A stretch of 62,648 bases of DNA from Micrococcales bacterium 32-70-13 (GCA_002280615.1 NCEJ01000001.1:1-62648); one strand, 5' to 3'; counted from the stretch's first letter, positions 1,769-30,098 are shown. Notes: generated from the letters alone by a model not told the origin. Program-made: numbers and translations.

Positions 1769-3598
1769 ATGCCCCACGGCTTCGAGCGCATCGTCGCGCA
1801 CCCCGAGCGTCTTGCCCACTCCGCCGATCAGAGCGCCGAGCCGCCCAGCGACACGATCGTCGCGCGCCTGCGGCTCGACGGCTGGCACGACGTGACCGTG
1901 CGCGTGCTACACCCGTTCACGTGGGATGCGAAGTTCCGCGGCTTCCGCATCGACGAGCTCGCCGTCACCCCCGCTCGGCCCCGCACGCTCGTGAGCGGCG
2001 CCTACTCGGTCGCCGACGCCGCCGTGCTCAACGTCGACGACGCGCGCGGCACGCGCACGCCCTTCGACTTCCCCGAGGGCGAGATGCACGACGGCGTGCT
2101 CTACCGCACGGTCGGGCACTCCCCCGAGCCGCATGAGCGCTACCAGGATGCCGCCGGCTGGTGCACGGTCTCCGCGACCGACGCCGACGGACGGGCGGTC
2201 GCCCTCGCGACGGCGCTCGACCGCAGCGACTGCGTGCTGCTCGACCTGCTCGCCGACGACCACGGCCTCACCGTGCAAACCCGCCTGCCGTGGCAGACCT
2301 TCCGCCCCGCCGAACTGCCGGCGACGGATGCCCTCCCCGGCCTGCTCGTGCGCCACGGGCACGGCGACCACGAGACCGCCGAGGCCTGGCTGCGCGGGCT
2401 GCTCGCCGCGACAGTGCCGAGCCGGGCATCCACCGCCCCGCCGCCGCTCATCGCCGACACCTGGGGCTTCGGCACCGACATCGACCCGGAGCGCGTGACG
2501 GCGTTCTTCGACGTCGCCGCCGATCTCGGCGTCGAGGTCGTGACGGTCGACAAGGGCTGGGAGGACCACGTCGGCGACTGGAACGCGCAGTCGGGCTACG
2601 CGGGCGGCGTCGCGGGCATCGCCGCGCTCGCACACGATCGCGGCATGAAGCTCGGGCTGTGGGTGGGGGCGGGCAACGCCGCCCCCGACTCGGCGGTCGC
2701 GACGGCGCACCCCGACTGGCTCGCGACCTGGAACGGCCGCCCCCAGATGGTGTCGCACCGCAACCACTCCCTGTGCCTCGGGCACGAGCCCGCGCGCGAC
2801 CACGTGCTCGCGTGCCTCGACCGCCTCGTGCGCGACGGCGTCGACTGGCTGCTGCACGACTTCGAGACGATCAGCCGCTGCGACGCCGCGCACCACACGC
2901 ACGACCCCGGCGCGGGCGAGGCGGCGGGTGTGACCGGCTGGTACCACGTGCTCGCGACACTGCGCGAGCGGCACCCGAACCTGCTCATCGAGAACTGCTG
3001 GAACGGCGGCAAGCCCCTCGACCTCGCCATGATCGCCCACCACGACACGACGATCGGCGACGACTGGTGCCGCTCGGAGGAGAACCGCCTCGCGGCCCTC
3101 GGCCTCGGCGTCTACCTGCCGTCGTCGTGGACGAGCAAGTACATGGGCGACGAGCCGCACCTGCCGCTGCGCGCGCAGCTCGCGCCCTACCTCGTCGGCG
3201 GCCCCTGGATCCTCATGGGCGACCTGCCGGGCTGGAGCGCCGCGCAGCTCGCTGACATGCGTCGCGCGATCGCGATCTACCGCGAGTGGCGAACGGCGGC
3301 GATGGATGCTCGTGCGGTGCCGCCCGTGCTCTCGGGCTCGACGGCCGGCGTGACGGGGCTCGCGTACTCGCCCCGCGCTGACGGCGCCCAGCTCGCCACG
3401 TTCGCGGTCGCCGAGACTGCTGTTAGGGCCACGGTTCACTGGCACCCAGTCATCATGACGTCGAGTACAGAAGCGTGGATCGTGCGCGACGAGTGGAGCG
3501 GCGCCGAGCAGCGCGTCGCCCGCGCCGAGCTCGATGCGGGCATCCCGCTCGACACGGCGAGCGCCGACGGACTTGCCCTCAGCGTGCGCCCCGCCTGA
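1769..3598 (+). CDS. Divergent GH36/clan D alpha-galactosidase-like glycoside hydrolase
   Basis: DTW, VDKGW...GDW, GMKLGLWV, HPDW, LIENCWNGG motifs follow the GH36 catalytic barrel layout. Confidence 0.7.
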   Translation: MPHGFERIVAHPERLAHSADQSAEPPSDTIVARLRLDGWHDVTVRVLHPFTWDAKFRGFRIDELAVTPARPRTLVSGAYSVADAAVLNVDDARGTRTPFDFPEGEMHDGVLYRTVGHSPEPHERYQDAAGWCTVSATDADGRAVALATALDRSDCVLLDLLADDHGLTVQTRLPWQTFRPAELPATDALPGLLVRHGHGDHETAEAWLRGLLAATVPSRASTAPPPLIADTWGFGTDIDPERVTAFFDVAADLGVEVVTVDKGWEDHVGDWNAQSGYAGGVAGIAALAHDRGMKLGLWVGAGNAAPDSAVATAHPDWLATWNGRPQMVSHRNHSLCLGHEPARDHVLACLDRLVRDGVDWLLHDFETISRCDAAHHTHDPGAGEAAGVTGWYHVLATLRERHPNLLIENCWNGGKPLDLAMIAHHDTTIGDDWCRSEENRLAALGLGVYLPSSWTSKYMGDEPHLPLRAQLAPYLVGGPWILMGDLPGWSAAQLADMRRAIAIYREWRTAAMDARAVPPVLSGSTAGVTGLAYSPRADGAQLATFAVAETAVRATVHWHPVIMTSSTEAWIVRDEWSGAEQRVARAELDAGIPLDTASADGLALSVRPA

Positions 3599-20334: not shown

Positions 20335-20498
20335 GGCCTGCCCATTCTTCACCCGCGCGGGCTGTGCGCCCGCCGCGAGCGTGCCGCTCTCAGCGAACGG
20401 GGTTCGCCTGAGAAGTACTAATCGCTGTTCGGTGAGGCGTGTCGAGGAAGGTCCGACCTGCGGTCTAGCATTTGGTTTGACTCAAAGGGGAAGAGGCC

Positions 20499-21419
20499 GT
20501 GCAGTTCGATCTTGTGATCACTAACCCACCCTTCCAGGACAGCGTCAATCGCAAGAAGACGCCCCACAAGTTATGGATCGACTTCACCTTAAGCGTGTTC
20601 TCGCGGTTGGTACGGGACGGGGGCAGCCTGGTCCAGGTCTCGCCTGCAAGCTTCGCGAGCCCCAGCAACTTGGTGTTGAATCTGATGGAAGAACACCAGA
20701 CCCACATCATGCGCTGGGGAACTGGCCATCACTTCCCCGAGATCGGCTCTACCTTCAGTGACTACTGGATCGAGAAGAGCCCGAACGACGGGCGGCCGAC
20801 CCGGGTCGTCGCGGGTGGCGAGCGTTTTGATATCGAACTCGACAGTCGGGTCTTCTATCTCCCCAACGACATCTCGCGATTGGCGCTCTCCATCCACGAG
20901 AAAGTGATGTACGCGGATCGACCACGCTTGAGGGTCGAGTGGGACTATGTGACGGCACACAACATCCGTCGATATCGCGAGAATCCGACGCTCGTCGAAG
21001 TCGAGGACGCTGAGCACCCGTTCCCGGTCTTCCACACGAACCGATCGACCTGGTGGTCATCAATCCGCCAAGACTGGGCAGACTCGCTCAAGGTCATGTG
21101 GACCAGAAGCGGTTACACAAAGCCGTTCTTTGACCCAGGACTGCTCGGCGGGACAGACATGGTCTATTTCGTCAGGGTCGCTTCGATTGACGAGGGGGAA
21201 CTTCTCGCGCACAACATGAACAGTTCGCTCATGAGATACATCTACAAGAGCGCCAAGTGGTCTGGTTTTGGAAACGAGCGAGTCTTCTCGATGTTGCCGG
21301 AGTTGCCTCGGGACCGGCTCCTTTCGGACGCCGACGTCTACGCACACTTCGATCTAGTCCAGGAGGAGGTGGACTATGTCGAAGAGCATTTGGCACCAGG
21401 TCGCAGAAAGAGTAAATGA
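20499..21419 (+). CDS. DNA amino-methyltransferase half: catalytic motifs IV-VIII plus target-recognition region (Eco57I/gamma-like)
   Basis: Begins FDLVITNPPF; LVRDGGSLVQVSP (motif VI-like); no motif I; SD GAAGAGG; in-frame TGA at 20478. Confidence 0.75.
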   Translation: MQFDLVITNPPFQDSVNRKKTPHKLWIDFTLSVFSRLVRDGGSLVQVSPASFASPSNLVLNLMEEHQTHIMRWGTGHHFPEIGSTFSDYWIEKSPNDGRPTRVVAGGERFDIELDSRVFYLPNDISRLALSIHEKVMYADRPRLRVEWDYVTAHNIRRYRENPTLVEVEDAEHPFPVFHTNRSTWWSSIRQDWADSLKVMWTRSGYTKPFFDPGLLGGTDMVYFVRVASIDEGELLAHNMNSSLMRYIYKSAKWSGFGNERVFSMLPELPRDRLLSDADVYAHFDLVQEEVDYVEEHLAPGRRKSK

Positions 21420-21909
21420 GCACGACTTCATGGCGGGGATTCGCCGTGATCAAGTCCGAGTCGCTGCGACCGCAGAAGTCTTCACTCCGACCGAACTCGT
21501 GATCGAGATGCTCCAGTACCTCAATCCTGAGATGCTCGCGCCAGGGAAGTCTGTTCTTGACCCAGCTTGTGGAGATGGTCAGTTTCTTGTTGCCGCGAAG
21601 TGGTTCAAGATTCTGCGTTTCGGGATGACTGAGGAAGCCGCGCTCAGAGACATCTACGGGGTGGACGTCATGCGGGACAACGTAGACCTATGCCAGCGAC
21701 GGCTCGGTGGCGGCACGATTCTCATGGGCAACACGCTTCGTCCCTCAGAACGTCTTCCGCTTCAGAGTATTCACGAACATGAGCAGATGATGATCCTCTT
21801 CAGCGAGTCCGCAGAGAAGGACGGCCGGAAGCGCAAACCTCGACTTGGCAAAGTCGGCGTTACTCATCGGGCCGTTGTTGGCGAGACGATGGCATCGACT
21901 CTGTTCTAG
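21376..21909 (+). CDS. DNA amino-methyltransferase half: SAM-binding motifs X-I-II-III
   Basis: AEVFTP, VLDPACGDGQFL, IYGVD, ILMGNTL; no NPPY/F; strong SD AGGAGGAGGT. Confidence 0.8.
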   Translation: MSKSIWHQVAERVNEHDFMAGIRRDQVRVAATAEVFTPTELVIEMLQYLNPEMLAPGKSVLDPACGDGQFLVAAKWFKILRFGMTEEAALRDIYGVDVMRDNVDLCQRRLGGGTILMGNTLRPSERLPLQSIHEHEQMMILFSESAEKDGRKRKPRLGKVGVTHRAVVGETMASTLF

Positions 21910-23048
21910 CTGCCCCCAAACACCCCTGCCGCAGCAAGGTCGAGGTAGAGGTTCGTTGATGTGGCAATCTCTTTACTCTTCCGAGGACGAATCTCTCCCC
22001 ATTCCAATTCGACCGGCACGCCTTTGTCGACCTTGAGCTGCTTTCCCTGGTAGGGCGGCTTGGGTCGGTGCCATGCGCCATTCGTGTTGATGGTGAGAGG
22101 AACATCCGCGGAGACCACGACCGCCCCGTTCGCTTCGAAGGAAAAACGAAGGCTCTGACCCGCCTTCACAACCTTGAAAGTCGTATTGGGATCATTGATC
22201 CGGGCGTACAGCTCTCTGAACCGCGGGTTCGTAATGCTGTCTGCAAACTGAAGACCGTCAAAGTAGAGGGCGTCCTCGCCACCGTCCAGATTGGCGCGTT
22301 CCAGAAACTTCTGTCTCACCACGTCATGGCCCAAGACGTCAAAAACACTCAAGAGAGTGTCCTGCGCCTGAGGAACGATCTCGGCCACGACGCCCTTGAC
22401 CGCCGCTTGATCGTAGTAGCGAAGGGTCAGTAGCCGACTCCTTACATGTTGCTGAAGGTCCACGAGCTTCATCAGGAGGGGAGCAAGATCAGCTCGTCCT
22501 TCGAAGGCGAGGACTGCATCTCTGTCTTTCGTATTGCTGCCCTTAAAGGACGTATCCGGGGTCCTTGGGTCAACGTAGGTACCCACTCCGTTTCTCTCAA
22601 ACACAAAACCCGCAGCGAACGAAAGGAAGGTCCCGCTCGACACCTGCGGTCGCTTGACGCCACCTGGCCCGACGTAGTTCTTGAGGCTGACGGCGTACGT
22701 GCGACTCGGTTCATCGATCGTGAGAATGAAATCGGCCTTCTTGCCCAGGTTCCGTAGCCGCGCCTCGTCAACCTCGAATGCGAACTTGCTTCCGGGAAAA
22801 GCGACTGCGAGCCTTTGCACAAAGGCGGGAACCTGAGCATCGGCGTTCGCCTTGTAGGCCGGGTATCGACTCCCAAAGTCTGAAATCGCCCAGTCCCGAT
22901 GAGCGATAGCGAGGTAGTCCACGAACTCCTGCCAGAGCTCTTTGGAATGCGGAAGAATCGCGACACCCATTTCCTCAGCGGTCTTCGCCATCAAGTACAC
23001 GGCATAGAACTCAGCCGCGTCCTGGGTTATGTGTTGATCCCGATCCAT
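21906..23048 (-). CDS. Putative type II restriction endonuclease (PD-(D/E)xK variant)
   Basis: N-terminal QDAAE helix, KADF...VSLK (D...SxK) motif; convergent with the MTase genes and shares a CTAG stop overlap. Confidence 0.5.
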   Translation of the reverse strand: MDRDQHITQDAAEFYAVYLMAKTAEEMGVAILPHSKELWQEFVDYLAIAHRDWAISDFGSRYPAYKANADAQVPAFVQRLAVAFPGSKFAFEVDEARLRNLGKKADFILTIDEPSRTYAVSLKNYVGPGGVKRPQVSSGTFLSFAAGFVFERNGVGTYVDPRTPDTSFKGSNTKDRDAVLAFEGRADLAPLLMKLVDLQQHVRSRLLTLRYYDQAAVKGVVAEIVPQAQDTLLSVFDVLGHDVVRQKFLERANLDGGEDALYFDGLQFADSITNPRFRELYARINDPNTTFKVVKAGQSLRFSFEANGAVVVSADVPLTINTNGAWHRPKPPYQGKQLKVDKGVPVELEWGEIRPRKSKEIATSTNLYLDLAAAGVFGGS

Positions 23049-23173
23049 AAAGTCAACCCTTCTAGCTCCGGCCCTAAAACGAGAAGGGCTCTTCTTAGGC
23101 TACTAAGGGAAGTGAGGATCAGCGCCACCCTGATTTTGACGAACCCGCGACTGGACCGAAGTCTGCTGTGGGC

Positions 23174-24166
23174 TCACGCGTCGAGCCACTTGTTCTCGAG
23201 GTGGTCGGCCGTCACCCGGCGGATGGTGCCCGAGCGCGAGCGCAGCACGATCGACTCGGTCGTGATGATGCCGTTCTCGCGCCGCACGCCGCGCACGAGC
23301 TCGCCGTCGGTCACGCCCGTGGCCACGAAGAAGGTGTTGTCGCTGCGCACGAGCTCGTCGGCCTCGTAGACGTGGTCGAACTTCAGCCCGGCGGCGAGCC
23401 CGCGGGCGCGCTCCTCGTCGCTGCCCGGCGCGAGACGGCCCTGGATGAAGCCGCCGAGCGCCTTCACGGCGCACGCCGTCGCGACGCCCTCGGGACTGCC
23501 GCCGATGCCGACGCACAGGTCGATGCGCGAGTCGTGCCGCGCCGCGTTGATGCCGCCGGCGACGTCGCCGTCGAGGATGAGCCGCGTGCCCGCCCCCGTC
23601 GCGCGGATCTCGGCGATGAGCTGCTCGTGCCGCGGCCGGTCGAGCACGGCGACGCGCATCTCGTCGACGGGCTTCTTCTTGGCCGCCGCGAGGGCGCGGA
23701 TGTTCTCGCCGATCGACTGGCGGATGTCGAGCACGCCGATGCCCTCGTGCCCGGCGACGAGCTTCTCCATGTAGAACACGCTCGAGGCGTCGAGCATCGA
23801 GCCGCGGTCGGCGACGGCGATCATCGAGATGGCGTGCCCGCGGCCCGCGGCCGTGAGCGAGGTGCCGTCGATGGGGTCGACGGCGATGTCGCACGCCGGG
23901 CCCTGGCCGTTCCCGACCACCTCGCCGTTGAAGAGCATGGGCGCGTTGTCTTTCTCTCCCTCGCCGATGACGACGAGGCCGCTGAAGTTGACGGTGCCCA
24001 GGAACTTGCGCATCGCATCCACCGCCGCCCCGTCGGCCGCGAGCTTGTCGCCCTTGCCGATGAAGGGGGCCGAGCGGATGGCGGCCGCCTCGGTCGCGCG
24101 CACGAGCTCCATCGCGAGGTTGCGGTCGGGGTGCAGGAACAGGGTTCCGGTCTCAGTAGTCACCAC
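23174..24166 (-). CDS. glpX: Class II fructose-1,6-bisphosphatase
   Basis: LAMELVRATEAAA, VIGEGEKD.APM, VDPIDGT, DGDVAG, ATGVTDG. Confidence 0.96.
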   Translation of the reverse strand: MVTTETGTLFLHPDRNLAMELVRATEAAAIRSAPFIGKGDKLAADGAAVDAMRKFLGTVNFSGLVVIGEGEKDNAPMLFNGEVVGNGQGPACDIAVDPIDGTSLTAAGRGHAISMIAVADRGSMLDASSVFYMEKLVAGHEGIGVLDIRQSIGENIRALAAAKKKPVDEMRVAVLDRPRHEQLIAEIRATGAGTRLILDGDVAGGINAARHDSRIDLCVGIGGSPEGVATACAVKALGGFIQGRLAPGSDEERARGLAAGLKFDHVYEADELVRSDNTFFVATGVTDGELVRGVRRENGIITTESIVLRSRSGTIRRVTADHLENKWLDA

Positions 24167-25274: not shown

Positions 25275-26492
25275 CTAGGCGCTCGGCCGGTCGTCGCGAT
25301 CGCGCGCGACCGGCCCGCCGGGGCTGCCCGGTTCCGGGGTGCGCTGCACCGCCGTGCGCCCGCCGCCCGTGCCGACGACCTCGAACTCGACCGCCGTCAC
25401 GGGGCCCGAGCGCCAGCGCAGGTTCTCGACCGTCGAGCGCAGGCTGACGTAGTAGGGCGCGAGGAAGGTCTCGCGGCGGCCCTCGGGCAGCGTGCTGAGG
25501 ATGCGCAGGGCGACGGCAATGCCGCCGCCGCTCGTGCGGCGCAGCTCGACGCGGGCCGAGCCGAGCTGCTGCTCCGGATCGCCGAGCAGGGCGTCGAGCA
25601 GGGCGCGCATGGCCGTGCGCTGGGCCAGATCGAGGCCCTCCGCCAGCCGGTCGGGGTCGTCGACCGACACGGCTCGGCCATCGGCGACGCGCTCGATCCA
25701 CGTGCGGTCGACCTCGCCGGTCAGCTCGCTGCGCAGCCGGTCGGCGATCGCCGCCGCCCGAACCGTGTCGCCGCGCGTGACCGTGCCGCGCTCGAGCACC
25801 GCGGCGATGAAGGCCGTGGCCGGCGCAATGCGGGCGCCCGTGATCTGATCGACCGCGGCGATCAGCTCGTCATCGGCAGAGCCGGCAGGCGCGACCTCGA
25901 GCGGGCGCTCGCTCCACCGGCTGAGCGCGACCGTGATGGCGCGGATCATGACGATGCCCCCGAGCGCCCCGATGAGGATCGGGAAGAGCGTGATGGCCAC
26001 GGTCGACAGGGGCGGCCAGCTCGGGTCGTCCGGCACGACGAGCACGAGGGTCACTGCGGCGCCCACTGCGAGCAGGAGCCCGCCGAGGAGGGCCAGTCGC
26101 AGCACGGTCGAGTACGGCAGCATCGCGAGCAGCAGCAGCGACACGGCGAGCGGCGCCCACCACAGCTCGAGCGCGAACGCCTCACCGCGATACCCGACCG
26201 CCGACACGACGAGCGCCGTCGCCGACAGGGCTACGGCGACGAGCGCGCGCCCGAGCGTGAACTCCCCGCGCCGCGGACGTGAAGCCACGTGCACCCAGAG
26301 CAGGGCGAGCACCGCGAGCGCGAGCGCACCCGCCTGCACGAGGGGCCGCGATCCGGCCTGACCGAAGGGTCCGAGCACGACGACGCCGTGCACGAGCACG
26401 AGACCGGCCGCCGCGAGCGGAAGGTTCGGCGTCGTGAACCAGCTGAGTGGGTCGGCGTCCCACAGGCTCCGGCGCCATGATCCCGATCTCAC
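25275..26492 (-). CDS. Multi-pass membrane protein, partner of kinase-like protein (copy 2)
   Basis: 5-6 TM plus cytoplasmic tail; paralog of 27670-28884 (FALELWWAP, QR.A..AL.D.L, LPEGRR...LAPYY). Confidence 0.75.
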   Translation of the reverse strand: MRSGSWRRSLWDADPLSWFTTPNLPLAAAGLVLVHGVVVLGPFGQAGSRPLVQAGALALAVLALLWVHVASRPRRGEFTLGRALVAVALSATALVVSAVGYRGEAFALELWWAPLAVSLLLLAMLPYSTVLRLALLGGLLLAVGAAVTLVLVVPDDPSWPPLSTVAITLFPILIGALGGIVMIRAITVALSRWSERPLEVAPAGSADDELIAAVDQITGARIAPATAFIAAVLERGTVTRGDTVRAAAIADRLRSELTGEVDRTWIERVADGRAVSVDDPDRLAEGLDLAQRTAMRALLDALLGDPEQQLGSARVELRRTSGGGIAVALRILSTLPEGRRETFLAPYYVSLRSTVENLRWRSGPVTAVEFEVVGTGGGRTAVQRTPEPGSPGGPVARDRDDRPSA

Positions 26493-27673
26493 GAGCCCGC
26501 ACCCGATGTCGGAACCGTCATCATGACGGTCGTTCCGTCGGGCCCCGACCAGAGCCGCACGGTGCCGCCGACCTGGACGATGCGCTGCTCGACCGACATG
26601 CGCAGGCCGAGGCGGTCGTCGCCCACCTCTGTCGCGGCGAACCCGTGGCCGTCATCGACGATGAGCACGGTGAGGGCGCCATCACGGATGCCCGTCACGA
26701 GCTCGGCGCGATCCGTGCCCGCGTGCTTGACGACGTTGTCGAGCGCCGCCCGGGCCGCACCGACCACCGCATGCCGGGTCGCCGCCGGCACCTCGTCTGA
26801 GAGCAGCTCGGCGCCGCTCACGTCGACACGCACGCCGCTCCACTGGTACTCGTGGGCGAGCTCGAGCAGGGCATCCCCCAGCGCGCTCCCCGCGGTCGAG
26901 GGCGCTGAGGGCTCCGCGACCGTCGCGGCGGCGGCGACCGCGAGGTGATCCTCGAGCACCGATCGGGCGCGCGGCGAGAGCGGGCCCGGCGATCGGGCGA
27001 TGACGGCGAGATCGGCGAGCACGGTATCGTGCACGAGGCTCGCCGCGCGCTGCTCGAGCAGCCGTCGGCGGTCGGCGCCGAGCACGTCGTCGGCCGCCGA
27101 GGCGAGGGGTTCGAGCTGCCGGGAGGCCTGCCGCTGCGCGAGCCCGAGCGTGAGGTATGCCACGAGCGAGATCATGAACACGATGAACGGGCCGGCACCG
27201 AGCCCCACCGCGCTGCCGGCGAGGGCGAGCCCCAGCACGACGCTGAGCTGAGCGACGATGTAGGCCGCGATCGACCAGACGACGCCGCTGAGCGCACGAC
27301 CGCTCACCGCGCCCACGAGGCACACAGCCGTCGCGACGCGGTTGAGCAGGTAGGGCCCCGGGTCGTCGAACACCGGATCGACCGCGAGGGCGATGACGGG
27401 AACCGCGACCGAGCAGACCGCCCCGCCCGCGATGAAGAGCACGGCCGTGACGGCGCCCGGGCGCCAGAGCAGCACGAGGGCCAGCAGGCCGATGGCGAGG
27501 AAGGGTGCGATGACGAGCGGGATCTGCTCGGTGTAGCCCTGCGCGATGAGCACGTCGGCGACGATCGCCGCGGCGATCACCGCCCCGACCGCTGCGACGA
27601 CGCGCTGCGTCGTCGCCAGCCCCCGAACGGTGATGCGCGCTGCCACCGCCCGCGGCAGCGCGACGCTCGTCAT
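26489..27673 (-). CDS. Membrane sensor histidine kinase-like protein (HisKA_3/HATPase_c), copy 2
   Basis: TMs, LVHDTVL H-box, DNVVKHAG, VDDGHGF, RLGLRMS..GG. Confidence 0.82.
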   Translation of the reverse strand: MTSVALPRAVAARITVRGLATTQRVVAAVGAVIAAAIVADVLIAQGYTEQIPLVIAPFLAIGLLALVLLWRPGAVTAVLFIAGGAVCSVAVPVIALAVDPVFDDPGPYLLNRVATAVCLVGAVSGRALSGVVWSIAAYIVAQLSVVLGLALAGSAVGLGAGPFIVFMISLVAYLTLGLAQRQASRQLEPLASAADDVLGADRRRLLEQRAASLVHDTVLADLAVIARSPGPLSPRARSVLEDHLAVAAAATVAEPSAPSTAGSALGDALLELAHEYQWSGVRVDVSGAELLSDEVPAATRHAVVGAARAALDNVVKHAGTDRAELVTGIRDGALTVLIVDDGHGFAATEVGDDRLGLRMSVEQRIVQVGGTVRLWSGPDGTTVMMTVPTSGAGS

Positions 27674-28884
27674 GGCCGCTCGCTGTCGACGTCGAAGGTG
27701 ACGACGAGCGACTCGCCGCCCCGCCACTCGATACGCCGCACGACCGACTTCACGGTCAAATAGTACGGCGCGAGCACCGCCGTCCGGCGGCCCTCCGGCA
27801 GGGCGAGTCCGACCGTGACGGCCACGGCGACGGCATCGTCGGCGGCGGGCGCCAGGTCGAGACGGGCCCCGAATACCCCCGCCTCGGGGTCGCTGAACAG
27901 CCCGTCGACGAGCGCGATGATGGCGGCCCGCTGGTCGACGGTGATCGTGTCGGCGAGGCGGAACGGGTCGGTCACGTACACCGGTCGGCCGGCGACGTGC
28001 GCCGCGAGCCAGCTCTGGTCGCCGCGCTCGACGAGCGCTCTGCGCATGTCGCGCGCGAGGCGGGCCGCTGCGCGGCGGTCGCGGTCGTGCAGCGCCGGCG
28101 CACCCTCGAGGCGCTCGAGGAAGGGCACGACCGCGGTCGAGAACCGCCCCCCGGTGATGCGGTCGACGACCGCGGCCGCGGGCTCGACCGCGTCGTCATC
28201 GGGTGCCGAGCCGCCGATGCCCCGACGCCAGCCCAGCACCGCCGTCACGAGCGTGCGATTGAGCACGATGCCGCCGATCACGGCGAAGACGGGCGTCGAG
28301 GTGATGACGACGACGTCGGCGATCGGCAGGTCGCTGCCGCGCTCGGCCGCGACGAACCCCGCGGCGGTCGCCGTCGCGGCGACCACGAGCAGTGCTCCGG
28401 GCACGAAGACCCGCCCCGCCACGAAGGGGCTCGTCGCCATGACGATGAGGGATGCGCAGACGGGCGCCCACCACAGCTCGAGGGCGAACAGGGGGTCGGC
28501 GGGCGACGGCAGCAGGGCATCCACGACGGGGAAGACCGCTCGCCGGTCGACGAGCGCGAGCGCCGACATCATGACGGCGAGCGACGCGAGGCCGAAGATG
28601 AGGGCCGCGCGCCGGGTGCGGAAGCGATCGCGGGAGGGCAGAGCCCCCCGGTGGATCGCGTAGGCCGCGCCCGTCATGACGACGACGACGACGAACTGGA
28701 ACGCCGGCCGGTACCCGCCCTGGCCGCCGATGAGCACGGCCGAGAGCCCGAACAGGGCGATGGCGAGCGTGACCCAGCTGCTCACGAGCGACGACGTGAG
28801 CCAGCTCAGGGTGTCGATGTCGAGCGACGAGCGCCGCCACCAGCTGAGGGTGTCGAGGCGCCGCGGTGCCGCGGTGCCGGTCAC
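27670..28884 (-). CDS. Multi-pass membrane protein, partner of kinase-like protein (copy 1)
   Basis: GTG overlaps the upstream TGA; paralog of 25275-26492. Confidence 0.72.
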   Translation of the reverse strand: MTGTAAPRRLDTLSWWRRSSLDIDTLSWLTSSLVSSWVTLAIALFGLSAVLIGGQGGYRPAFQFVVVVVMTGAAYAIHRGALPSRDRFRTRRAALIFGLASLAVMMSALALVDRRAVFPVVDALLPSPADPLFALELWWAPVCASLIVMATSPFVAGRVFVPGALLVVAATATAAGFVAAERGSDLPIADVVVITSTPVFAVIGGIVLNRTLVTAVLGWRRGIGGSAPDDDAVEPAAAVVDRITGGRFSTAVVPFLERLEGAPALHDRDRRAAARLARDMRRALVERGDQSWLAAHVAGRPVYVTDPFRLADTITVDQRAAIIALVDGLFSDPEAGVFGARLDLAPAADDAVAVAVTVGLALPEGRRTAVLAPYYLTVKSVVRRIEWRGGESLVVTFDVDSERP

Positions 28885-30098
28885 GACGCCGCCTCGATCG
28901 GCACCGACAGCATGACCGTCGTGCCGGACTCGTTCGACCACACGCGCGCGGCCCCGCCGACGCGTGTGAGCCGCCCGTGGATCGACTCGCGAAGCCCCAG
29001 CCGGTCGTCGGCCACCTCGTCGACCGCGAAGCCGCTCCCGCCGTCGACGACGAGCACGGTGACGGCGCGCGCCGTGCGGCCGACCGTCACCTCGGCGCGA
29101 TCGGTGCCCGCGTGGCGCAGCACGTTCTCGAGCGCGGCCGTCATCGCCGCGAGCACGGCCTCGCTCGCGGGCTCGCTCACGACCGGGGCTCCGGCGAGGA
29201 TCTCGGCTCCGGTGAGGTCGACGCGCAGCCCGCGCCAGCGCAGGTCGTCGACGATCGCGAGCATGCGCGCCGCGACCGAGCCCTCGACGGGGGCGGCGCT
29301 CACCACACCGACCGAGGTCGCGGTCGCCTGGGCCACGGCATCCAGATCGCGCCGGATGCCCTGCCGCACCCGGTCGTCGAGCCGGGCGTCGTCGCGCTCG
29401 AGCAGCGTGAGCGAGGCGAGCACGGTGTCGTGCACGAGCGCCGCGGCCGCGCGCTCGCGCTGCCGGGCCGCGTTCTGGCGGCGCGAGAGCGCCGCGGCAT
29501 CTGGCAGCTCGGGAACCCGATCGCGCCGCCGCCGCCCGCCGATCGCGATGACCGCGTAGGCCACGATCATGATGATGGCGTCGACGAGGCGGTCGGGCGA
29601 GAGGGCGAGCGGGCGACCGGCGATGAGGTGCCCGGCGACGAGCGAGACCGTTCCGGCCAGCAGCCCGACCCCCACCCAGAGCACGCCGTCGGCCGCGCTC
29701 GGCCGCACGGCGCCGATGAACAGCAGGGCCCAGGCGAGCGACTCGACGAGGAACAGCCCGCGCGACTGCTCGGGGGTGTACGCGGTGAGCAGCGTCGCGA
29801 CGAAGCCCGTGCCGGCGATCGTGCCGATCACGACCAGCGCGCTCGCGACGGGCACGGTGGGGCGTACCACGAGCACGACCGCGGTCGCGAACGCGGGCGA
29901 CCACCACAGCAGCAGGGCCAGCAGGGCGCTCGCGTCGCTCGAGCGCACGGCGACCTCGATCATGAGCGCGAGCACGAGCAGCAGCGAGACGGGGCCGATG
30001 ACTCTCTGGGCCGAGCCGAGACCGCGCACGAGGGCAGCGGCCGTGACCTCCCGCGGCGGCGGCGCGGGTCGCACCGGGGGCGGGGCGGTCGCGCTCAT
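28881..30098 (-). CDS. Membrane sensor histidine kinase-like protein (HisKA_3/HATPase_c), copy 1
   Basis: LVHDTVL, ENVLRHAG, VDGGSGF, RLGLRES..GG. Confidence 0.82.
   Translation of the reverse strand: MSATAPPPVRPAPPPREVTAAALVRGLGSAQRVIGPVSLLLVLALMIEVAVRSSDASALLALLLWWSPAFATAVVLVVRPTVPVASALVVIGTIAGTGFVATLLTAYTPEQSRGLFLVESLAWALLFIGAVRPSAADGVLWVGVGLLAGTVSLVAGHLIAGRPLALSPDRLVDAIIMIVAYAVIAIGGRRRRDRVPELPDAAALSRRQNAARQRERAAAALVHDTVLASLTLLERDDARLDDRVRQGIRRDLDAVAQATATSVGVVSAAPVEGSVAARMLAIVDDLRWRGLRVDLTGAEILAGAPVVSEPASEAVLAAMTAALENVLRHAGTDRAEVTVGRTARAVTVLVVDGGSGFAVDEVADDRLGLRESIHGRLTRVGGAARVWSNESGTTVMLSVPIEAAS

What the first reader, a model, noticed from the sequence alone, without database searches (positions are those of the whole stretch)
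20499..23048. Candidate RM/defence system with a naturally split, permuted DNA methyltransferase
Seen: ORF 20499-21419 starts directly at the catalytic motif IV (FDLVITNPPF) and carries motif VI-like sequence and a long putative target-recognition region, but no SAM-binding motif. An in-frame stop at 20478 rules out a longer N-terminus. The next ORF (21376-21909) has only motifs X (EVFTP), I (LDPACGDGQFL), II (IYGVD) and III (ILMGNTL), and its own strong SD (AGGAGGAGGT). Known: gamma-class amino-MTases run X-I-II-III-IV...VIII-TRD in one chain, beta-class run IV...TRD-X-I-II-III, and the classic split MTases (M.AquI, M.EcoHK31I) are m5C enzymes. Inference: gamma-type signatures in beta-type gene order suggest a heterodimeric m6A/m4C MTase resembling a circular-permutation intermediate, working with the convergent third gene as a restriction system.
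Basis: partly seen in the sequence, partly recalled or inferred. Interest (0 to 1): 0.8.

Follow-up and report, generated by a model that had tools for sequence, protein, structure and literature searches.

The report
AgsI-type split methylase restriction system
This three-gene insert is a close relative of the named AgsI restriction-modification system: its DNA methylase is encoded as two overlapping half-genes that are predicted to assemble into one enzyme, and its relatives carry the same halves fused in either order beside the same predicted nuclease, which likely makes the family a natural test case for how proteins become circularly permuted.

Summary
Observation confirmed; the split enzyme is already named. 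ORF A (20499-21419) is 69% identical to M.AgsIA and ORF B (21376-21909) 57% to M.AgsIB of Agrococcus sp. 25. The split is no error: a contig from another study spans the junction unchanged, dN/dS is 0.04-0.16, and 52 of 78 non-redundant loci are split. The halves are predicted to rebuild one fold (0.87, best control 0.01, possibly by likeness to solved enzymes). ORF C (21906-23048, minus) is a likely PD-(D/E)xK nuclease, present in 70 of 78 loci. The cassette is a 57% GC insert absent from close relatives. Beyond AgsI: with the same nuclease family, 13 loci fuse the halves catalytic-first (one doubtful) and 11 SAM-half-first, and all three layouts are depleted of TTSAA (observed/expected 0.33-0.68, controls 0.89-0.99). 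Direction of change is unresolved, so 'intermediate' is unproven. This scan already noted the wider split family in phages; the AgsI link, the nuclease and the shared site are new here. New member of a known kind; interest 0.45.

The parts
20402..23175 (.). Inserted three-gene cassette, 57% GC in a window of about 70% GC, between an ABC-transporter gene and a glpX-like gene; replaces about 25 nt of the empty site; no target duplication seen
   Evidence: empty site 20402/23176 in G024, G002 and run X3; the two flank gene labels are my reading of their translations
20478..20480 (+). In-frame TGA that caps ORF A upstream
20499..21419 (+). ORF A, M.AgsIA orthologue: catalytic half (motif IV NPPF at residues 9-12) plus inferred target-recognition domain, 306 aa
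   Evidence: (69% identity over 305 aa)
21361..21370 (+). Shine-Dalgarno-like AGGAGGAGGT of ORF B, written in the Q-E-E-V codons of ORF A
21376..21909 (+). ORF B, M.AgsIB orthologue: SAM-binding half (motifs X, I, II, III), 177 aa; starts 44 nt inside ORF A in the +1 frame
   Evidence: (57% identity over 171 aa)
21906..23048 (-). ORF C, likely Type II PD-(D/E)xK restriction endonuclease (invariant E95, D106, S121-x-K123, Q135), 380 aa, convergent with A-B

Best explanation
The cassette is an AgsI-type Type II restriction-modification system whose methylase is encoded as two overlapping half-genes; the halves are predicted to pair into one gamma-type N6-adenine methyltransferase that likely marks TTSAA, while the convergent gene likely encodes the nuclease that cuts unmarked TTSAA. 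Shown here: gene anatomy, orthology to M.AgsIA/M.AgsIB, conservation of the split, purifying selection, linkage with ORF C, insertion at a variable site, depletion of TTSAA in related loci. Predicted: A's first strand (residues 3-7, just before NPPF) pairs with B's motif-I strand (58-63), closing the central sheet so that B brings SAM and A brings the adenine pocket and DNA reading. Inferred: B is re-started from the Shine-Dalgarno site inside A's last codons, giving coupled output of the two subunits; the modified base is adenine, since a TTCAA/TTGAA site has a central cytosine on one strand only; ORF C is the R.AgsI counterpart and gives defence against unmodified incoming DNA.
For: Orthology: 69% to M.AgsIA and 57% to M.AgsIB; window and M.AgsIA share a clade at 100/99 (15 of 15 rows split in the wider tree). 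AgsI is listed as TTSAA in PMC5931654 (passage in Table 1). Split kept: 52 of 78 non-redundant loci, same start register in 44 of 52, independent contig across the junction. Selection: dN/dS 0.054 and 0.044 (A), 0.164 and 0.117 (B), 0.061 (C) against L021/L022 (dS is near saturation). Complex: score 0.87, best of 3 controls 0.01; the mark was reached by 116 of 157 solved complexes and 2 of 215 mismatched pairs; runs agree in at least 91% of contacts, partner pLDDT at least 84; halves of a split gene tend to pass by likeness to solved enzymes. ORF C: present in 70 of 78 loci and 41 of 44 with room on both sides; model pLDDT 95, best two structural matches HinP1I (Z 7.0, rmsd 5.3, 215 aligned) and MspI (Z 6.2, rmsd 5.5, 198 aligned); Atlas feature neighbours are HaeIII-family clusters at 0.96. 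Site: TTSAA observed/expected 0.54, 0.66, 0.55 in three split groups, ranks 1-3 of 32 words, against 0.89-0.99 in three control sets; TTWAA not depleted in the AT-rich groups.
Against: No activity was measured. R.AgsI itself was not among the 120 listed of 126 relatives of ORF C, so C = R.AgsI counterpart is inferred from neighbours of M.AgsIA (L029: 80% to M.AgsIA, 76% to M.AgsIB, same convergent C). C has no Pfam, PADLOC, NCBIfam, PHROG or PDB sequence match, Foldseek gave nothing at E <= 0.001, Z under 8 can reflect a common arrangement, and the Atlas TM match to HaeIII clusters (0.58) was under its naming bar. The window's own genome is not depleted of TTSAA (0.95), as expected of a recent insert but no support. 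Flank-only depletion is absent in one split group (0.94) and modest in others (0.68-0.74); the RM genes are homologous, so their depletion is not independent. A differs from M.AgsIA at 31% of positions, some in the recognition region, so the site could have drifted. Three split loci have no C in the DNA held (L016, L017 with room; L038 cut on one side).
Confidence: 0.85

Rival explanations
1. Same architecture, different target: an AgsI-related system whose recognition domain has drifted to another site.
For: 31% divergence from M.AgsIA, with changes next to conserved recognition-region motifs; no TTSAA depletion in the own genome.
Against: TTSAA is the most depleted of 32 words in the high-GC split group, which holds the window's closest relatives (0.55), and is depleted in much more distant loci too; HTN, WTRSGY and AKWSGxGN motifs are kept in 52 of 52 split loci.
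Confidence: 0.08
2. The true enzyme is a single A-B chain made by a programmed frameshift at the overlap, and the separate halves are by-products.
For: Catalytic-first single chains exist in the family; the overlap is nearly always +1 (45 of 52).
Against: B has its own strong Shine-Dalgarno-like site and an invariant Met1 in 102 aligned sequences; overlap length varies from 11 to 80 nt; three loci use the +2 frame; M.AgsIA and M.AgsIB are deposited as separate proteins. I did not scan for slippery sites.
Confidence: 0.03
3. The methylase is active but ORF C is not a restriction nuclease (regulator, nicking or inactive protein).
For: No family match for C; S-x-K in place of D/E-x-K; weak structural scores; a few loci lack C.
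Against: Invariant acidic and lysine residues in nuclease spacing, top structural matches are two restriction enzymes, HaeIII-like neighbours, near-obligate linkage and avoidance of TTSAA, which a methylase alone would hardly select for.
Confidence: 0.03
4. Assembly error or decaying pseudogene of a single-chain methylase.
For: The window comes from a 71% complete, 261-contig assembly; frameshifted copies occur in the family (L019, L040, L149).
Against: Independent contig identical across the junction; conserved register; dN/dS far below 1; gene order is opposite to the single-chain gamma order, so one frameshift of a gamma gene could not give it.
Confidence: 0.01

Closest known systems
AgsI restriction-modification system of Agrococcus sp. 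25 (M.AgsIA, CRZ19175.1 / A0A0H5RYI1; M.AgsIB, A0A0H5RZ88; site TTSAA)
   Same: Both subunits, same break point before motif IV, 69% and 57% identity over nearly full length, same clade at 100/99. I recall, but could not find or read, a 2015 report from the enzyme's supplier that M.AgsI is a two-subunit m6A methylase.
   Different: Different host and sequence; R.AgsI sequence and the gene order of the AgsI operon could not be fetched, so the nuclease correspondence is inferred; the site is inferred, not measured.
Gamma-class (Class A topology) N6-adenine methyltransferases: M.TaqI, M.BseCI
   Same: NPPF motif IV, motif X/I signatures; the B profile finds M.BseCI in the PDB (7qw5, E 3e-6); NPPF/NPPY marks Class A in 10.1101/2023.12.13.571470 (whole text read).
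   Different: Two chains, catalytic half first; the A profile finds no solved structure, so the recognition domain has no close solved relative.
Beta-class amino-methyltransferases (M.PvuII, M.RsrI, CcrM)
   Same: [quoted passage not shown]
   Different: Signatures are gamma-type; beta enzymes are full-length homodimers that divide labour between subunits (PMC7544214), whereas here two complementary halves are predicted to form one catalytic domain.
Naturally split C5 methylases M.AquI (cited in PMC5944983, passages) and M.EcoHK31I (recalled)
   Same: One methylase from two polypeptides.
   Different: [quoted passage not shown]
HinP1I / MspI restriction endonucleases and Pfam RE_HaeIII (PF09556)
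   Same: Best structural and language-model neighbours of ORF C.
   Different: 9-11% identity, Z 6-7, no Pfam hit in 101 family members; resemblance, not membership.

Membership tests
AgsI system (M.AgsIA + M.AgsIB + R.AgsI) | Catalytic/recognition subunit orthologous to M.AgsIA | tested here: met
   69% identity over 305 aa, no gaps; clade 100/99
AgsI system (M.AgsIA + M.AgsIB + R.AgsI) | Separate SAM-binding subunit orthologous to M.AgsIB | tested here: met
   57% identity over 171 aa; same 8-row clade 98/88
AgsI system (M.AgsIA + M.AgsIB + R.AgsI) | Nuclease homologous to R.AgsI | tested here: inconclusive
   No record named R.AgsI among 120 listed of 126 hits; nearest neighbours of M.AgsIA/B carry a C homologue
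AgsI system (M.AgsIA + M.AgsIB + R.AgsI) | Recognises TTSAA | tested here: inconclusive
   Indirect: TTSAA depleted in related loci against controls; not depleted in own genome; no methylome
Type II restriction-modification system | Methylase and separate nuclease genes tightly linked | tested here: met
   C in 70 of 78 loci, 41 of 44 with room; nuclease identity of C is predicted
Type II restriction-modification system | Site-specific cleavage blocked by cognate methylation | not testable with these tools
   needs biochemistry
Gamma-class amino-methyltransferase | NPP(Y/F) motif IV and gamma-type motif X/I signatures | tested here: met
Gamma-class amino-methyltransferase | Motif I - motif IV - TRD in one chain | tested here: not met
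   two chains, catalytic gene first; works like a gamma enzyme but is not one by this definition
Beta-class amino-methyltransferase | Motif IV - TRD - motif I in one chain, active as a dimer of full chains | tested here: not met
   order holds only at gene level in the window; single-chain versions occur in relatives
PD-(D/E)xK nuclease fold (HinP1I/MspI/HaeIII-like) | Conserved acidic residue before strand 2 and x-x-K on strand 3, on an alpha/beta core | tested here: met
   D106 before strand 107-111, S121-x-K123 on strand 116-124, invariant in 101 sequences
PD-(D/E)xK nuclease fold (HinP1I/MspI/HaeIII-like) | Significant structural or profile match to a known member | tested here: inconclusive
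   Z 7.0 and 6.2, Foldseek E 0.28, Atlas 0.96 by features and TM 0.58 under its bar, no Pfam hit

The most novel reading that the evidence does not exclude
The AgsI family is a natural, same-specificity permutation series: one TTSAA restriction system whose methylase exists as a gamma-order chain (giant-virus-type contigs), a circularly permuted catalytic-first chain (large phages) and a two-subunit enzyme (bacteria, T4-like phages), with interchange by fission and re-fusion and with the SAM-binding half as an exchangeable module. It would be a DNA-methylase case of the fission-fusion route to circular permutation, in a family usually cited for permutation by duplication, anchored on a commercial enzyme.
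Probability: 0.6. Interest if true: 0.65.

Novelty: new member of a known kind. Interest (0 to 1): 0.45.

Why it matters
The window's system is an ordinary-looking defence insert with a named relative, so it is not a new kind. Its value is as an anchor. PMC3320104 (passages) names two routes to circular permutation, cites DNA methyltransferases for duplication, and says the evidence for fission-fusion is finding the halves as separate polypeptides in relatives. Here separate halves and both fused orders occur with one nuclease family and apparently one target, so activity, oligomeric state and half-swapping can be compared directly. The catalytic-first single chains also test whether beta order forces dimerisation (proposed in PMC7544214) when the parts are gamma-derived. 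A natural split m6A methylase is also a ready scaffold for targeted adenine methylation. ORF C gives annotators a restriction-enzyme family that Pfam, PADLOC, NCBIfam and PHROGs missed.

Tried and rejected
Family and PDB sequence searches of ORF C found nothing; Foldseek nothing at E <= 0.001. My first idea that an AgsI structure is in the PDB found no support in these searches. Folding a catalytic-first single chain (L102) without an alignment failed (pLDDT 33) and says nothing; whether that form rebuilds the fold in cis is untested. L037 looked like a close fused relative but its fusion comes from a tandem duplication of about 76 nt at the junction: possible assembly artefact, not counted as a true permutant (12 of the 13 remain). 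Order of events: holding split + catalytic-first forms together is not rejected (p-AU 0.054), nor is one clade of catalytic-first forms (p-AU 0.168); the nuclease tree needs 8 changes of layout; so no direction is claimed. No promoter-like site was found (0, expected 0.7). No RNA holder listed. No target-site duplication at the insert. Literature: 'AgsI'+'methyltransferase', 'M.AgsI' (0 papers), AgsI/restriction endonuclease/TTSAA, 'TTSAA', Dedkov/methyltransferase/AgsI, split-methylase searches listed no paper on M.AgsI or on this three-layout series; the library lacks most subscription journals. Bujnicki 2002 (PMC102321) is not held. Supplements of the bioRxiv classification preprint (its 13 one-motif 'fragments' in Table S9b might include M.AgsIA/B) could not be seen. 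PMC6158711, PMC12707154 and PMC7253447 were searched by term only and gave nothing on AgsI or split amino-methylases.

Full report
Observation. ORF A (20499-21419) opens on the strand before NPPF and is capped by a TGA at 20478; ORF B (21376-21909) holds motifs X, I, II, III, starts 44 nt inside A in the +1 frame and has AGGAGGAGGT 5 nt upstream; ORF C (21906-23048) converges. The stretch is 57% GC against about 70% for the window.

It is an insert. Among 40 relatives only the flanks matched; in G024 the flanks are 98-99% identical and lie 25 nt apart. A run from another study holds both the empty site (joint 20402 to 23176) and a 445-nt contig that crosses the A/B junction with no difference. 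Other genomes of the genus carry unrelated inserts at the same place. The A profile found the gene in 2 of 401 genomes of the family, own genome included.

It has a named relative. The search with A returned 605 proteins (120 listed, mostly about 300 aa), among them M.AgsIA of Agrococcus sp. 25 at 69% identity without gaps. The search with B returned 1953 (120 listed), among them M.AgsIB at 57%. AgsI is listed with the site TTSAA in PMC5931654 (passage). I recall a 2015 report that M.AgsI is a two-subunit m6A enzyme; it is not in the library and I have not read it. The window and M.AgsIA share a clade at 100/99.

The split is conserved and selected. I mapped A, B and C on 160 fetched loci plus the window (redundant): split 96, SAM-half-first fusion 31, catalytic-first fusion 21, A only 13. 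Dropping 21 rows with a cut or frameshifted A left 140; collapsing at 85% identity left 78: 52 split, 13 catalytic-first, 11 SAM-first, 2 A only. These counts depend on what the pattern searches retrieve and are no census. In 44 of 52 split loci B's ATG lies in the same Tyr/His-Val(Ala) codon pair of A; 3 use the +2 frame, 3 gave other starts, 2 were not scored. dN/dS against L021 and L022 is 0.04-0.16 for all three genes, with dS near saturation. A much more distant split pair stands in cyanophage S-CAM7.

The halves fit. ESMFold2 with alignments and SAM gave 0.87 against a best control of 0.01; the mark was reached by 116 of 157 solved complexes and 2 of 215 mismatched pairs; runs agree in at least 91% of contacts, partner pLDDT at least 84. 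The tightest contacts join A residues 3-7 and B residues 58-63, the strands before motif IV and motif I, which by established methylase topology are the central neighbours of the sheet (PMC7544214, passage). Such a pass can come from likeness to solved gamma enzymes; it shows fit, not binding.

ORF C. It has no match in Pfam, PADLOC, NCBIfam, PHROGs or PDB sequences, but 126 relatives with invariant E95, D106, S121, K123, Q135 in 101 aligned sequences. The model (pLDDT 95.3) ranks HinP1I (Z 7.0, rmsd 5.3, 215 aligned) and MspI (Z 6.2, rmsd 5.5, 198 aligned) first; Foldseek gave no significant match; the Atlas places it beside HaeIII-family clusters (0.96 by features; TM 0.58, under the bar). 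It accompanies A in 70 of 78 loci and in 41 of 44 with room on both sides, upstream or downstream, and convergent in the window's clade. No record named R.AgsI was listed, so the correspondence is inferred.

The site. With a Markov expectation over 32 interrupted palindromes, TTSAA has observed/expected 0.54 (14 cyanophage-like split loci), 0.66 (15 other AT-rich split loci), 0.55 (22 GC-rich split loci), 0.68 (12 catalytic-first) and 0.33 (11 SAM-first), ranks 1-3, against 0.99, 0.89 and 0.97 in 16, 52 and 59 control viral loci fetched with neighbouring genes. Flanks alone give 0.68, 0.94, 0.73, 0.74 and 0.41; RM genes alone 0.23-0.54, but these are homologous and not independent. TTWAA is near 1 in the AT-rich groups. 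Controls were free of A and C only in the 6 kb held. The own genome shows 0.95. This supports, indirectly, one target for all three layouts, and an active nuclease. Adenine is the likely target base because only one strand of TTSAA has a central cytosine (inference).

The permutation series. Single chains NPPF...TRD...motif X...motif I occur in L004, L053, L054, L102, L123, L136, L140, L145, L147, L148, L151, L154 and in 10 of 150 listed 50%-cluster representatives; single chains in gamma order occur in 11 loci, several labelled as giant-virus assemblies, and in 65 of those 150, mostly distant. In the A tree (45 rows) the nuclease-linked group is a clade (100/99), catalytic-first rows branch deepest on open forks, and the SAM-first rows nest among split ones (99/88, 97/87); but holding split and catalytic-first rows together is not rejected (p 0.054). 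In the B tree (46 rows, 117 columns) the SAM halves of the SAM-first rows go with distant gamma enzymes, and joining them to the split halves is rejected (p 1.5e-10; the group was chosen after seeing the quick tree). Two readings stand: gamma order is ancestral and the SAM-first rows are its remnant, or those rows re-fused a split catalytic half behind a borrowed SAM half. P0379 is a catalytic-first chain whose SAM half nests among split halves (98/88) and keeps their N-terminal helix behind a new linker: likely a re-fusion from the split state; its predicted start lacks NPPF, so it may be cut. The nuclease tree needs 8 changes of layout among 37 rows. Base composition differs strongly between groups. 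Interchange has happened more than once; the first step is unresolved.

Comparison and novelty. By membership the window is a new member of the AgsI kind (both methylase subunits met; nuclease and site inconclusive). It works like a gamma enzyme but fails the single-chain criterion of both gamma and beta classes. The classification preprint 10.1101/2023.12.13.571470 (whole text read; tables are images and supplements closed) describes no NPPF-type catalytic-first or two-chain class and sets aside 13 one-motif sequences as fragments. PMC3320104 and PMC5944983 (passages) give duplication as the route for DNA methylases. Nine literature searches listed no paper on this series. Earlier notes of this scan already describe the wider split family in phages, with both fused orders; none names AgsI, and the search by sequence found no look-alike. 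What this locus adds is the named anchor, the cognate nuclease and the shared site.

Verdict. Real, conserved, most likely a working TTSAA restriction system with a heterodimeric m6A methylase (0.85). New member of a known kind. Interest 0.45, lowered from 0.8 because the split enzyme is already named, kept above routine because the family makes the fission-fusion route directly testable.

Noticed in passing
window 20402-23175; G022:C22:21061-24320, G011:C175:9486-10753, G001:C5:2889-3648: The gap between the ABC-transporter gene and the glpX-like gene is a variable slot: empty in G024, G002 and others, a two-component-like pair plus one more gene in G022 (labels from my reading of the translations), other inserts in G011 and G001.
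   Followed up: partly
window 21376-21909 (P0132): A public gene call starts ORF B at codon 42 (136 aa), which drops motif X; Met1 is invariant in 102 aligned relatives, so that call is probably wrong.
   Followed up: yes
L037:2480-2680: A tandem duplication of about 76 nt at the A/B junction puts B in frame with A; real recent fusion or assembly artefact.
   Followed up: partly
L019:4400-4450, L149:2270-2290, L040:1500-1545: Frameshifts inside A (two loci, similar position) or B (one locus); error or decay not resolved.
   Followed up: no
L162:2471-3827 (Synechococcus phage S-CAM7); L164:984-2917 (Klebsiella phage KpV477); L161:119-3343 (Synechococcus phage MA01): Distant forms in cultured phages: an unannotated split A;B pair in S-CAM7; in KpV477 a B-like gene behind a 381-aa NPPY protein and a 110-aa gene; in MA01 the A half at the end of a 1074-aa protein.
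   Followed up: partly
L118:1884-3011, L111:1913-3001 and similar cyanophage-like loci: A 360-375 aa gene sits between the nuclease and ORF A in several phage loci.
   Followed up: no
L145, L147, L148, L151, L154 (about 3520-3570): These catalytic-first chains have an insertion of some tens of residues in the recognition region.
   Followed up: no
L016, L017, L038, L128: Methylase genes without the nuclease in the DNA held; L128 also lacks B nearby.
   Followed up: partly
window 25275-30098 (-): Several tandem membrane-protein genes that read like sensor kinases (my recalled label, from the translations).
   Followed up: no
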